From NCBI RefSeq assembly GCF_009914755.1, contig NC_060943.1: a DNA stretch of 64,000 nucleotides, one strand, 5' to 3'. Positions 8,162 to 35,500 of the stretch are shown here, in pieces. The position numbers and the translations under genes are program-made. The DNA is from the human T2T-CHM13v2.0 reference genome, Homo sapiens. How positions within the stretch are numbered: position 1 is the stretch's first letter; each line of letters opens with the position of its first letter. The notes beneath the pieces are model-generated. The model was not told where the DNA came from and did no database searches. It saw nothing but the letters and a program-made list of their open reading frames with translations.

Positions 8162-11100
8162 TCAATTCCCATCTATGAGTGAGAACATGCGGTGTTTGGT
8201 TTTTTGTCCTTGTGATAGTTTACTGAGAATAATGATTTCCAATTTCATCCATGTCCCTACAAAGGACATAAATTCATCATTTTTTATGGCTGCATAGTAT
8301 TCCATGGTGTATATGTGCCACATTTTCTTAATCCAGTCTATCATTGTTGGACATTTGGGTTGGTTCCAAGTCTTAGCTATTGTGAATAGTGCTGCAATAA
8401 ATATATGTATGCATGTGTCTTTATAGCAGCATGATTTATAATCCTTTGGGTATATACCCAGTAATGGGATGGCTGGGTCAAATGGTAATTCTAGTTCTAG
8501 ATCCCTGAGGAATCGCCACACTGACTTCCACAATGGTTGAACTAGTTTACAGTCCCACCAACAGTGTAAAAGTGTTCCTATTTCTCCACATCCTCTCCAG
8601 CACCTGTTGTTTCCTGACTTTTTAATGATTGCCATTCTAACTGGTGTGAGATGGTATCTCATTGTGGTTTTGATTTGCATTTCTCTGATTGCCAGTGATG
8701 ATGAGCATTTTTTCATGTGTCTTTTGGCTGCATAAATGTCTTCTTTTGAGAAGTGTCTGTTCATATCCTTTGCCCACTTTTTGATGGGGTTGTTTTTTTC
8801 TTGTAAATTTGTTTGAGTTCATTGTAGATTCTGGATATTAGCCCTTTGTCAGATGAGTAGGTTGCGAAAATTTTCTCCCATTTTGTAGGTTGCCTGTTCA
8901 CTCTGATGGTAGTTTCTTTTGCTGTACAGAAGCTCTTTAGTTTAATTAGATCCCATTTGTCAATTTTGGCTTTTGTTGCCATTACTTTCGGTGTTTTAGA
9001 CATGAAGTCCTTGCCCATGCCTATGTCCTGAATGGTAATGCCTAGGTTTTCTTCTAGGGCTTTTATGGTTTTAGGTCTAACGTTTAAGTCTTTAATCCAT
9101 CTTGAATTAATTTTTGTATAAGGTGTAAGGAAGGGATCCAGTTTCAGCTTTCTACATATGGCTAGCCAGTTTTCCCAGCACCATTTACTAAATAGGGAAT
9201 CCTTTCCCCATTGCTTGTTTTTCTCAGGTTTGTCAAAGATCAGATAGTTGTAGATAAGCGGCATTATTTCTGAGGGCTCTGTTCTGTTCCATTGATCTAT
9301 ATCTCTGTTTTGGTACCAATACCATGCTGTTTTGGTTACTGTAGCCTTGTAGTATAGTTTGAAGTCAGGTAGTGTGATGCCTCCAGCTTTGTTCTTTTGG
9401 CTTAGGATTGACTTGGTGATGTGGTCTCTTTTTTGGTTCCATATGAACTTTAAAGTGGTTTTTTCCAATTCTGTGAAGAAAGTCATTGGTAGCTTGATGG
9501 GGATGGCATTGAATCTATAAATTACCTTGGGCAGCATGGCCATTTTCACAATATTGATTCTTCCTACCCATGAGCATGGAATGTTCTTCCATTTCTTTGT
9601 ATCCTCTTTTATTTCATTGAGCAGTGGTTTGTAGTTCTCCTTGAAGAGGTCCTTCACGTCCCTTGTAAGTTGGATTCCTAAGTATTTTATTCTCTTTGAA
9701 GCAATTGTGAATGGGAGTTCACTCATGATTTGGCTCTCTGTTTGTCTGTTATTGGTGTATAAGAATGCTTGTGATTTTTGTACATTGATTTTGTATCCTG
9801 AGACTTTGCTGAAGTTGCTTATCAGCTTAAGGAGATTTTGGGCTGAGACAATGGGGTTTTCTAGATATAGAATCATGTCATCTGCAAACAGGGACAATTT
9901 GACTTCCTCTTTTCCTAATTGAATACCCTTTATTTCCTTCTCCTGCCTAATTGCCCTGGCCAGAACTTCCAACACTATGTTGAATAGTAGTGGTGAGAGA
10001 GGGTATCCCTGTCTTGTGCCAGTTTTCAAAGGGAATGCTTCCAGTTTTTGCCCATTCAGTATGATTTTGGCTGTGGGTTTGTCATAGATAGCTGTTATTA
10101 TTTTGAGATATGTCCCATCAATACCTAATTTATTGAGAGTTTTTAGCATGAAGGGTTGTTGAATTTTGTCAAAGGCCTTTTCTGCATCTATTGAGATAAT
10201 CATGTGGTTTTTGTCTTTGGTTCTGTTTATGTGCTGGATTACATTTATTGATTTGCATATATTGAACCAGCCTTGCATCCCAGGGATGAAGCCCACTTGA
10301 TCATGGTGGATAAGCTTTTTGATGTGCTGCTGGATTGGGTTTGCCAGTATTTTATTGAGGATTTTTGCATCAGTGTTCATCAAGGATATTGGTCTAAAAT
10401 TCTCTTTTTTAGTTGTGTCTCTGCCCGGCTTTGGTATCAGGATGATGCTGGCCTCATAAAATGAGTTAGGGAGGATTCCCTCTTTTTCTATTGATTGGAA
10501 TAGTTTCAGAAGGAATGGTACCAGTTCCTCCTTGTGTCTGTGGTAGAATTCAGCTGTGAATCCATCTGGTCCTGGACTCTTTTTGGTTGGTAAGCTATTG
10601 ATTATTGCCACAATTTGAGATCCTGTTATTGGTCTATTCAGAGATTCAGCTTCTTCCTGGTTTAGTCTTGGGAGAGTGTATGTGTCGAGGAATTTATCCA
10701 TTTCTTCTAGATTTTCTAGTTTATTTGCGTAGAGGTGTTTGTAGTATTCTCTGATGGTAGTTTGTATTTCTGTGGGATCGGTGGTGATATCCCCTTTATC
10801 ATTTTTTATTGCGTCTATTTGATTCTTCTCTCTTTTTTTCTTTATTAGTCTTGCTAGAGGTCTATCAATTTTGTTGATCCTTTCAAAAATCCAGCTCCTG
10901 GATTCATTAATTTTTTGAAGGGTTTTCTGTGTCTCTATTTCCTTCAGTTCTGCTCTGATTTTAGTTATTTCTTGCCTTCTGCTAGCTTTTGAATGTGTTT
11001 GCTCTTGCTTCTTTAGTTGTTTTAATTGTGATGTTAGGGTGTCAATTTTGGATCTTTCCTGCTTTCTCTTGTGGGCATTTAGTGCTATAAATTTCCCTCT

Positions 11101-32500: not shown

Positions 32501-35500
32501 CAAAAAACCAGCTCCTGGATTCACTGATTTTTTGAAGGGTTTTTTGTGTCTCTATCTCCTTTGGTTCTTCCCTTATCTTAGTTATTTCTTGCCTTCTGCT
32601 AGGTTTTGAACGTGTTTGCTCTTGCTTCTTTAGTTCTTTTAATTGTGATGTTAGGGTGTCAATTTTAGATCGTCCCTGCTTTCTCTTGTGGGCATTTAGT
32701 GCTATAAATTTCCCTCTACAAACTGCTTTAAATGTGTCCCAGAGATTCTGGTATGTTGTGTCTTTGTTCTCATTGGTTTCAAAGAACATCTTTATTTCTG
32801 CCTTCATTTCACTGTGTACCCAGTAGTCATTCAGGAGCAGGTTGTTCAGTTTCCATGTAGTTGAGCAGTTTTGAGTGAGTTTCTTAATCCTGAGTTCTAG
32901 TTTGATTGCACTGTGGTCTGAGAGACAGTTTGTTATAATTTCTGTTCTTTTGCATTTGCTGAGGAGTGCTTTACTTCCAAATATGTGGTCAATTTTGGAA
33001 TAAGTGTGATGTGGTGCTGAGAAGAATGTATATTCTGTTGATTTGGGGTGGAGAGTCCTGAGGATGTCCATTAGGTCTGCTTGGTGCAGAGCTGAGTTCA
33101 ATTACTGGATATCCTTGTTAACTTACTGCCTCATTGATCTGTCTAATGTTGACAGTGGGGTGTTAAAGTCTCCCATTATTATTGTGTGGGAGTCTAAGTC
33201 TCTTTGTAGATCTCTAAGCACTTGCTTTATGAATCTGGGTGCTCCTGTATTGGGTGCATATATATTTAAGATAGTTAGCTCTTCTTGCTGAATTGATCCC
33301 TTTACCATTATGTAATGGCCTTCTTTGTCTCTTTTGATCTTTGTTGGTTTACAGTCTATTTTATCAGAGACTAGAATTGTGACCCTTGCCTTTTTTTGTT
33401 TCCCATTTGCTTGGTAGATCTTCCTCCATCCCTTTATTTTGAGCCTATGTGTGTCTCTGCACATGAGATGGGTTTCCTGAATACAGCACACTGATGGGTC
33501 TTGTCTCTTTATCCAATTTGCCAGTCTGTGTCTTTTAATTGGAGCATTTAGCCCATTTACGTTTAAGGTTAATATTGTTGTGTGGGAATTTGATCCTGTC
33601 ATTATGATGTTAGCTGGTTATGTTGCTCGTTAGTTGAGGCAGTTTCTTCCTAGCATCAATGGTCTTTACAATTTGTCATGTTTTTACAGTGGCTGGTACC
33701 GGTTGTTCCTTTCCATGTCTAGTGCTTCCTTCAGCAGCTCTTGTAGCGCAGGCCTGGTGGTGACAAAATCTCTCAGCATTTGCTTGTCTGTAAAGGATTT
33801 TATTTCTCCTTCACTTATGAAGCTTAGTTTGGCTGGATACGAAATTCTGGGTTGAAAATTCATTTCTTTAAGAATGTTGAATATTGGTCCCCTCTCTCTT
33901 CTGGCTTCTAGAGTATCTGCTGAGAGATCCGCTGTTAGTCTGATGGGTTTCCCTTTGTGGGTAACCCGACCTTTCTCTCTGGCTGCCCTTAACATTTTTT
34001 CCTTCATTTTAACTTTGAGGAATCTGACAAATATGTGTCTTGGAGTTGCTCTTCTCGAGGAGTATCTTTGTGGCATTCTCTGTATTTCCTGAATTTGAAT
34101 GTTGGCCTGCCTTGCTAGATTGGGGAAGTTCTCCTGGATAATACCCTGCAGAGTGTTTTCCAACTTGGTTCCATTCTCCCCATCACTTTCAGGTACACCA
34201 ATCAGGTGTAGATTTGGTCTTTTCATATAGTCCCATATTTCTTGGAGGTTTGTTCATTTCTTTTCACTCTTTTTTCTCTGAACTTCTCTTCTCACTTCAT
34301 TTCATTCATTTGATCTTCAATCACTGATACCTTCTTCCAGTTGATCGAATCAGCTACTGAAGCTTGTGCATTCGTCACGTAGTTCTTGTGCCATGGTTTT
34401 CAGCTCCATCAGGTCATTTAAGGACTTCTCTGCACTAGTTATTCTAGTTAGCCATTCATCTAATCTTTTTTCAAGGTTTTTAGCTTCTTTGCATTGGGTT
34501 CGAACTTCCTCCTTTAGCTCGGAGAAGTTTGATCATCTGAAGCCTTCTTCTCTCAACTCATCAAAGTCATTCTCTGTCCAGCTTTGTTCTGTTGCTGGAG
34601 CTGCATTCCTTTGGAGGGGGAGAGGTGCTCTGATTTTTAGAATTTTCAACTTTTCTGTTCTGTTTTTTCCCCATCTTTGTGGTTTTATCTACCTTTGGTC
34701 TTTCATGATGGTGACTTACAGATGGGGTTTTGGTGTGGATGTCCTTTCTGTTTGTTAGTTTTCCTTCTAACAGTTAGGACCCTCAGCTGCAGGTCTGTTG
34801 GAGTTTGCTGGAGGTCCACTCCAGACCCTGTTTTCCTGGGTATCAGCAGCAGAGGCTGCAGAACTGCGAATATTGTTGAACAGCAAAAGTTCCTGCCTGA
34901 TCCTTCCTCTGGAAGCTTCATCTCAGAGGGGTACCCGACCATGTGAGGTATCAGTTTGCCACTATGGGGGGGTGCTTCCCAGTTAGGCTACTCAGGGGTC
35001 AGGGACCCACTTGAGGAGGAAGTCTGTCCGTTCTCAGATCTCAAACTCTGTGCTGGGAGAACCAGTACTCTCTTCAAAGCTGTCAGACAGGGGCATTTAA
35101 GTCTGCAGAGGTTTCTGCTGCCTTTTGTTTGGCTATGCCCTGCCCCCAGAGGTGGAGTCTACGGAGGCAGGCAGGCCTCTTTGAGCAGCAGTGGGCTCCA
35201 CCCAGTTTGAGCTTCCTGGCCACTTGTTTACATACTCAAGCCTCAGCAATGGCGGGCGCCCCTCCCCTAGCCTCACTGTGGCCTTGTTGTTTGATCTCAG
35301 ACTGCTGTGCTAGCAATGAGTGAGGCTCTGTGGGCGTGGGACCCTCTGAACCAGGCACGGGATATATTCTCCTGGTGTGCCATTTGCTAAGACTGTTGGA
35401 AAAGTGCAGTATTAGGGTGGGAGTGACCCGATTTTCCAGGTGCCGTCTGTCACCCCTTCCCTTTGCTAGGAAAGGGAATTCCCTGACCCCTTGTGCTTCC

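What the first reader, a model, noticed from the sequence alone, without database searches (positions are those of the whole stretch)
9984..33068. Two L1s of different age share clustered non-consensus variants: possible short-tract gene conversion
Seen at a constant 21,617-bp offset: atagtagtggtgagagagggtat (9984-10006 / 31601-31623), gattgggtttg (10333-10343 / 31950-31960), cttgcttctttagtt (11004-11018 / 32621-32635) and gagagtcctgaggatgtc (11434-11451 / 33051-33068). Both ORF2s therefore read ANPIQQH, KKQEQT and DILRTLH. As I recall, the L1 consensus has ataggagt...gggcat, gattcggttt and gagagttctgtagatgtc (ANRIQQH, EKQEQT, DIYRTLH). Nearby subfamily-diagnostic bases still differ (tgaaaaaaat vs tgagaagaat; ctgggtatcc vs ctggatatcc). 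Inference: repeated conversion tracts of tens of bp between these same-orientation neighbours, which are also an NAHR substrate.
Basis: partly seen in the sequence, partly recalled or inferred. Interest (0 to 1): 0.7.

Follow-up and report, generated by a model that had tools for sequence, protein, structure and literature searches.

The report
Neighbouring dead L1s swapped DNA patches
Two dead LINE-1 jumping-gene copies 21.6 kb apart on human chromosome 19 share seven rare base changes in four short patches, two of which are found in no other LINE-1 copy of the genome, most likely because DNA repair copied short pieces from one neighbour into the other, a process known for other repeats that likely also acts between other nearby LINE-1 pairs.

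Summary
Observation confirmed. Two minus-strand L1s, A (7944-14099) and B (29572-35703), 89.3% identical, share seven rare alleles in four patches of 24-95 bp within 1.5 kb of ORF2; about 1.5 are expected, and 58 distant copies share 0-3 with A. Exact patterns for the three-change and two-change patches hit only A and B genome-wide; the two single-base patches recur (46 of 6,821 copies; 83 copies). Lineage-diagnostic bases between the patches still differ, so this is neither a sub-lineage nor a duplication. Best reading: short-tract nonallelic gene conversion, weakly indicated in both directions. Two additions. B is itself a chimera: a younger 5' part joined to an older 3' part near 31570-31790, no target-site duplication, likely an old L1-L1 deletion; the fourth patch lies in that junction. 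And among 6,744 unselected pairs of L1s sharing a rare allele, 4 lie within 60 kb (0.36 expected), though three of five alleles gave none. The process is described for Alu within about 10 kb; ten literature searches showed no genome-wide test for L1. At 89% identity the pair is a poor present-day NAHR substrate. Ape orthologues, other assemblies and SV sets were not available.

The parts
7944..14099 (-). L1 copy A, full length (6,156 bp), ORF1 and ORF2 broken; younger copy (L1PA3/4-like; the subfamily name is recalled, not from a call)
   Evidence: (tree position beside L027/L060/L017/L002); best genomic relatives 97%
7922..7936 (-). 15-bp target-site duplication of A, 3' copy (5' copy at 14102-14116)
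29572..35703 (-). L1 copy B, 6,132 bp, ORFs broken, no target-site duplication; chimera of two L1s
31790..35703 (-). younger 5' part of B (L1PA5/6-like, name recalled): 80 rare alleles in 3,045 aligned bp; best relatives 94%
29572..31567 (-). older 3' part of B (L1PA7/8-like, name recalled): 117 rare alleles in 1,546 aligned bp, third-codon excess 47 of 99; best relatives 89-90%
31567..31790 (-). junction zone of B: old-type and young-type bases alternate
   Evidence: changepoint LR 54 at A-coordinate 9950-10050; site table
11421..11451 (-). patch T1 in A (31 bp identical; B 33038-33068): three shared changes at 11445, 11444, 11440
33038..33068 (-). patch T1 in B
10995..11018 (-). patch T2 in A (24 bp; B 32612-32635): shared change at 11013 plus B-type base at 11011
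32612..32635 (-). patch T2 in B
10276..10370 (-). patch T3 in A (95 bp; B 31893-31987): shared CpG transversion at 10337
31893..31987 (-). patch T3 in B
9950..10006 (-). patch T4 in A (57 bp; B 31567-31623): shared changes at 10004 and 9988
31567..31623 (-). patch T4 in B, inside the chimera junction
11597..11605 (+). 9-bp inverted copy of the T1 core, present in A and absent from B; possible template for the triple change
   Evidence: 1.3% of random triple changes have such a template
27701..29569 (-). much older L1 remnant (74-79% to A) that begins in mid-ORF2 right at B's tail; its upstream part is not at B's 5' flank

Best explanation
Two independently inserted, now dead L1 copies share seven rare alleles in four short ORF2 patches, most likely because nonallelic gene conversion copied tens of bases from one neighbour into the other, probably on more than one occasion. 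Shown: the copies are separate insertions of different lineage stage, the patches are short (24-95 bp of perfect identity, bounded by lineage-diagnostic or private differences), two are unique to this pair, and all lie where A and B are most alike (92-95%), none in the older 3' part of B. Inferred: a break or stalled fork in one copy was repaired on the nearby same-strand copy (sister, homologue or intrachromatid), with synthesis over a short stretch and no crossover. Inferred, weakly: both directions were used (T2 from B to A; T1 and T4 from A to B). Separately inferred: B arose by an older recombination between two L1s that deleted the DNA between them.
For: T1 and T4 patterns: 2 matches each in the genome, both in this pair, with 6,202 copies in the T1 context. 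7 shared rare alleles against 1.5 expected and 0-3 for 58 distant copies. 7 of A's 18 rare alleles in 9950-11451 are shared, 0 of 45 elsewhere (interval chosen after the fact, alleles not independent). 83 of 99 non-CpG stage-diagnostic sites keep their own state in both copies. A has its own target-site duplication. Other neighbours: 4 of 6,744 unselected carrier pairs lie within 60 kb, all same strand (0.36 expected, P=5e-4; P=0.02 if the expectation is tripled), 9 within 120 kb (0.87 expected); the four T3 pairs that could be read are 93-97% identical, so not duplicates, and the chr15 pair shares 3 rare alleles in about 520 bp. Direction: A carries the B-type base at 11011 where 5 of 7 stage-matched copies do not; the T1 core has an inverted template only in A; inside T4, B lacks an old-type base (9973) that 4 of 4 relatives of its 3' part carry while both flanks are old-type.
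Against: Identity runs are not longer than with distant copies, so a run-length test would be negative. As four events against 1.5 expected the count alone is P=0.07. B shares more rare alleles with distant L035 (7-11) than with A, explained by old-lineage sequence but a warning about panel depth. T2 and T3 alleles recur. One of the first 100 chr1 copies carries two of the three T1 changes, so those changes are not fully independent. Three of five alleles tested genome-wide gave no pair within 60 kb. The direction evidence is thin: L024 and L034 also have the B-type base at 11011, and L047 and L065 combine old-type flanks with the young base at 9973. No orthologue or second haplotype was seen; the 5' UTR and last 450 bp had no panel.
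Confidence: 0.7

Rival explanations
1. One complex repair event: a long (about 1.5 kb) heteroduplex or repeated template switching between A and B, repaired in patches, possibly the same event that joined the two halves of B.
For: All four patches fall within 1.5 kb, and T4 sits in B's junction, where old-type and young-type bases alternate. Disjoint clustered tracts from single meioses are reported for allelic conversion (PMC4404656, abstract and passages).
Against: T2 points from B to A while T1 and T4 point from A to B, though weakly; four points within a third of the scanned length is not unusual (about 0.1 by hand calculation) and this is also the most similar stretch.
Confidence: 0.15
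2. Duplication and collapse: unequal crossovers between A and B made a tandem duplication that later collapsed at a slightly different point, leaving a patch.
For: Same-strand neighbours; B shows that L1-L1 crossover probably happened here once.
Against: Each patch needs two crossovers under 100 bp apart, four times; 89% identity is below the 95-96% reported for LINE-LINE CNVs (PMC4344489, passages); no duplicated flank at this offset.
Confidence: 0.06
3. RNA or cDNA of one copy served as the repair template for the other.
For: cDNA-mediated conversion is described for yeast retrotransposons (PMC6598467, passages); A lies inside a predicted lncRNA span on the opposite strand (hub annotation).
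Against: Both copies have broken ORFs; a diffusible template would not favour a neighbour among thousands of copies, yet sharing is distance-dependent.
Confidence: 0.05
4. Independent recurrent mutation, perhaps raised by a regional mutation spectrum; no transfer.
For: T2 and T3 alleles recur in about 1% of copies; 7 of the 46 T3 carriers are on chr19; single T1 changes recur at 1-2%. This may well explain T2 or T3 alone.
Against: The full T1 and T4 sets occur only in this pair; a second carrier chosen at random would be the neighbour with odds near 1 in several thousand for each.
Confidence: 0.02
5. Assembly or polishing error in T2T-CHM13 mixed reads of the two copies.
For: Only one assembly could be read.
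Against: Short patches with diagnostic differences a few bases away, at 89% identity, are not what read mis-assignment usually gives (own knowledge); other pairs show the same pattern.
Confidence: 0.02

Closest known systems
Nonallelic gene conversion among neighbouring Alu elements (Aleshin and Zhi 2010, as described in PMC8230782 and PMC6598467; the paper itself was not held)
   Same: Excess sharing of non-diagnostic mutations between nearby copies of a retrotransposon, with subfamily identity largely kept.
   Different: Reported range about 10 kb for 300-bp Alus; here 6-kb L1s at 21.6 kb, with other pairs at 31-54 kb and perhaps to 110 kb.
Interlocus gene conversion between duplicates (review PMC3924818, passages)
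   Same: Rate falls with distance and divergence; short tracts; works above about 80% identity.
   Different: Identical stretches here (24-95 bp) are shorter than the roughly 200-bp minimal efficient segment quoted for yeast and mouse.
L1-L1 gene conversion at single loci and in cell culture (Tremblay et al. 2000, seen only as a citation and one sentence in PMC1920257; locus NCLI34 in that paper, passage)
   Same: L1 sequence copied into another L1, tracts as short as 13 bp, one intrachromosomal case.
   Different: Those concern induced breaks or new insertions; here two old fixed-looking copies exchange point mutations.
LINE-LINE NAHR and L1-mediated deletions (PMC4344489, PMC9675761, passages)
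   Same: B has the anatomy of such a product: chimeric L1, homologous junction, mismatched flanks.
   Different: The A/B pair (89.3%) is below the 95-96% threshold of the first paper and the 93.5% median of the second; no deletion between A and B was shown.

Membership tests
Nonallelic gene conversion between TE copies | Copies are independent insertions, not one duplicated segment | tested here: met
   A has its own TSD, flanks differ, different tree positions
Nonallelic gene conversion between TE copies | Shared derived non-diagnostic alleles above homoplasy | tested here: met
   strong for T1 and T4, weak for T2 and T3 alone
Nonallelic gene conversion between TE copies | Local tract with copy-specific bases kept on both sides | tested here: met
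Nonallelic gene conversion between TE copies | Unusually long identity runs (GENECONV-type signal) | tested here: not met
   longest 95 bp against 71-105 bp for distant copies; GENECONV itself was not run; not a requirement for very short tracts
Nonallelic gene conversion between TE copies | Non-reciprocal transfer with known donor and unconverted ancestral state | tested here: inconclusive
   indirect direction hints only; no orthologues
Nonallelic gene conversion between TE copies | Sharing rises with proximity | tested here: met
   4 of 6,744 pairs within 60 kb against 0.36; rests on two of five alleles and a background from 100-copy chr1 lists
L1 sub-lineage marker | Alleles shared by a clade of dispersed copies | tested here: not met
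   T1 and T4 in 2 copies only; T3 carriers are of mixed stage, 88-97% identical
L1-L1 recombination deletion (copy B) | Chimeric element with homologous junction | tested here: met
L1-L1 recombination deletion (copy B) | No target-site duplication; flanks from two insertion sites | tested here: met
   best shared word 6 bp; 3' flank is mid-ORF2 of an older L1, 5' flank is a non-L1 degenerate repeat
L1-L1 recombination deletion (copy B) | Undeleted ancestral locus with two separate L1s in an outgroup | not testable with these tools
   no primate genomes held
Present-day LINE-LINE NAHR substrate (A/B) | At least 95-96% identity over kilobases | tested here: not met
   89.3% overall, at most 94.7% per 300 bp; threshold from PMC4344489
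L1PA subfamily assignment | Match to named subfamily consensus | not testable with these tools
   no repeat library; names are recalled and rest on divergence and tree order

The most novel reading that the evidence does not exclude
Short-patch gene conversion between nearby L1s is a genome-wide process in the human lineage: it reaches 50-100 kb (several times the range reported for Alu), works at 89-95% identity through sub-100-bp conserved islands of ORF2, favours G/C alleles, and can account for a third of a copy's rare alleles in the affected stretch; at this locus one such patch was laid into the junction of an L1-L1 deletion, perhaps in a three-copy repair event.
Probability: 0.4. Interest if true: 0.62.

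Novelty: new member of a known kind. Interest (0 to 1): 0.42.

Why it matters
The locus has no evident function, but it is an unusually clean footprint: allele sets found in exactly two of thousands of copies, and those two are neighbours. If the neighbour excess holds genome-wide, dead L1 copies do not decay independently, which bears on L1 dating and phylogeny, on mutation-rate estimates drawn from repeats, and on how far and at what divergence germline repair picks ectopic templates. A complete genome makes the test cheap: count rare-allele sharing against distance and orientation. B also shows that an apparently full-length L1 can be the scar of a deletion.

Tried and rejected
Segmental duplication of the pair: no flank homology at the offset. 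Sub-lineage markers: rejected by genome-wide counts. Long identity runs as evidence: negative. B as a uniformly hypermutated copy: rejected by the changepoint, third-codon excess and old-type bases shared with relatives of its 3' part. The chr19 T3 carriers at 23.10, 23.31 and 23.76 Mb as duplicates of B: rejected, 90-94% identical to B with 1-3 shared rare alleles. Three panel pairs 120-360 kb apart (L013/L026, L046/L049, L037/L044) share 1-3 rare alleles, within the background. Replicate alleles: C>A at the T3 site 0 of 1,596 pairs, T2 0 of 3,403, A>C 0 of 276 within 60 kb; A>G 1 of 435. One search included the common base by my mistake and gave only a denominator (7,492). A whole-element comparison of unselected neighbour pairs on chr1 was not done, and the chr3 pair was not read, so it could be a duplicate. 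Papers not held: Aleshin and Zhi 2010, Han et al. 2008, Harpak et al. 2017, Tremblay et al. 2000. PMC10883270 has no passage on conversion or recombination. No supplements were read; SV tables or bioRxiv supplements could list this locus.
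Full report
Observation. Self-alignment of the window shows two minus-strand L1s, A (7944-14099) and B (29572-35703), 89.3% identical over 6,160 columns; the four quoted strings are at the quoted places and the 21,617-bp offset holds from about 9930 to 12620. Both copies have broken ORF1 and ORF2, and both read the three quoted peptides. Positions below are those of A; add 21,617 for B.

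Panel. The top genomic matches to 1.6 kb of A and of B gave 29 + 29 other copies covering about 8400-13000 (30 of 40 listed loci each, self-hits dropped). Projected on A, fifteen columns have A and B agreeing against both panels; eight are transitions that also vary in the panels, as CpG decay does, and seven are not: 11445, 11444, 11440 (T1), 11013 (T2), 10337 (T3, a CpG transversion), 10004 and 9988 (T4). Perfect identity around them spans 31, 24, 95 and 57 bp, bounded by private or diagnostic differences.

More than chance. A has 63 and B 202 rare alleles in 4,592 columns; 7 are shared against about 1.5 expected; the 58 distant copies share 0-3 with A. Genome-wide exact patterns: T1 2 matches, T4 2 matches, both A and B; T1 context 6,202 copies; T3 46 of 6,821; T2 83 matches, denominator not measured. 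Against: as four events the count gives P=0.07; identity runs are ordinary; one of 100 listed chr1 copies has two of the three T1 changes; B shares 7-11 rare alleles with distant L035.

Independent insertions. A sits in the tree among L027, L060, L017 and L002 and has a 15-bp target-site duplication. 83 of 99 non-CpG stage-diagnostic sites keep their own state in both copies; of the other 16, the nine where B looked A-like are mostly states of B's true, slightly younger stage. The names L1PA3/4 for A, L1PA5/6 and L1PA7/8 for the parts of B are recalled, not from a call.

B is a chimera. Its rare-allele density rises from 80 in 3,045 bp to 117 in 1,546 bp with a changepoint at 9950-10050 (LR 54); the 3' part has 47 of 99 differences at third codon positions (P=0.002) against 21 of 54 in the 5' part. 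Best relatives are 94% for a mostly 5' query and 89-90% for the 3' part (40 candidates scored each). Four relatives of the 3' part share old-type bases with B from 10156 downwards, alternating with young-type bases at 10128, 10021 and 9973. B has no target-site duplication; its tail abuts mid-ORF2 of a much older L1 whose upstream part is not at B's 5' flank. Inference: an old recombination between two L1s deleted the DNA between them. T4 lies in this junction.

Direction. T2: A carries the B-type base at 11011, absent from 5 of 7 stage-matched copies, next to the shared 11013 change, which suggests B to A. T1: its 9-bp core is an exact inverted copy of A 11597-11605, not present in B; 1.3% of random triple changes have such a template within 200 bp, which suggests origin in A. 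T4: B lacks the old-type base at 9973 between old-type flanks, but two other copies do too. All three are hints.

Other neighbours. Among the 46 T3 carriers, three further same-strand pairs lie 31.6, 35.4 and 54.0 kb apart and one opposite-strand pair 109 kb apart. Read over 0.5-0.9 kb they are 93-97% identical, so separate insertions; the chr15 pair shares three rare alleles, the chr10 and distal chr19 pairs two, the chr5 pair one; distant carrier pairs in the same table often share two and twice three, so only proximity, not these counts, is telling. Four more alleles not shared-selected for neighbours were listed. Pooled, leaving out A/B: 4 of 6,744 pairs within 60 kb against 0.36, and 9 within 120 kb against 0.87. 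The background comes from three 100-copy chr1 lists where L1 density is about 0.65 of the genome mean; tripling it gives P=0.02 and 0.001. All close pairs carry alleles that are G or C after the change; the C>A, G>A (T2) and A>C alleles gave none within 60 kb. GC bias of 68% is reported for allelic conversion (PMC4404656, abstract and passages); the numbers here cannot test it.

Mechanism. Most likely a break or stalled fork in one copy was repaired on the neighbour through a short conserved island of ORF2, with brief synthesis and no crossover (inferred; 0.7 for repeated short events, 0.15 for one patchy event, the rest as listed). 7 of A's 18 rare alleles in 9950-11451 are shared and 0 of 45 outside.

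What is known. [quoted passage not shown] Distance, identity and minimal-segment rules: PMC3924818 (passages). L1-L1 conversion in single cases: PMC1920257 (passages). LINE-LINE NAHR thresholds and chimeric L1s: PMC4344489 and PMC9675761 (passages). A pangenome preprint removed 35 recombinant young L1s of 2,267 and did not, in the passages seen, test neighbours (10.64898/2026.05.14.725010). Ten searches (listings only for papers not named here) showed no genome-wide test of neighbour sharing for L1 and nothing on this locus; subscription papers and supplements were not covered, so this is not proof of absence.

Verdict. A real, well-supported footprint of a known process in a repeat family and at a distance for which I found no systematic account, plus an unnoticed chimeric L1. 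No function is implied. Interest 0.42.

Noticed in passing
window 43212-49515: 6.3-kb degenerate CT-rich low-complexity array (period-3 CTC base, about 61% matches); the long stop-free frames listed here are a by-product of its composition.
   Followed up: no
window 35704-42710: Degenerate satellite-like repeat with internal matches of 65-73% at several spacings, directly flanking B's 5' end; only partly masked.
   Followed up: no
window 14102-19153, with related pieces at 7229-7936 and 4148-5890: Diverged tandem and inverted repeats (71-88%), with a 35-bp period in places; related sequence lies on both sides of L1 A, which appears to have inserted into it.
   Followed up: no
L070 and L071 (G000:C15:37026474-37027374 and 37061875-37062775): Same-strand L1 pair 35.4 kb apart, 96.7% identical, sharing three rare alleles; a second candidate multi-patch pair.
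   Followed up: partly
G000:C3:13961524, 13994008, 14075805: Three L1s within 115 kb carry the same rare A>G allele (30 carriers genome-wide); not read, could be duplicates.
   Followed up: no
G000:C1:33536185 and 33693734: The only two of 100 listed copies with one particular T1-site allele are same-strand neighbours 157 kb apart.
   Followed up: no
G000:C19:23.10-23.76 Mb: Five of the 46 T3 carriers lie within 660 kb of 19p12 (A, B and three others of different stage), seven on chr19 in all.
   Followed up: partly
L035 (G000:C2:178533206-178537806), A-coordinates 9795-9396: This distant L1 has a 400-bp stretch with 20 unique alleles that shares old-type bases with B's 3' part; likely a patch from an older L1.
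   Followed up: no
window 28948-29251: An L1 3'-end fragment interrupts the older L1 remnant below B, so at least three L1 layers are nested here.
   Followed up: no
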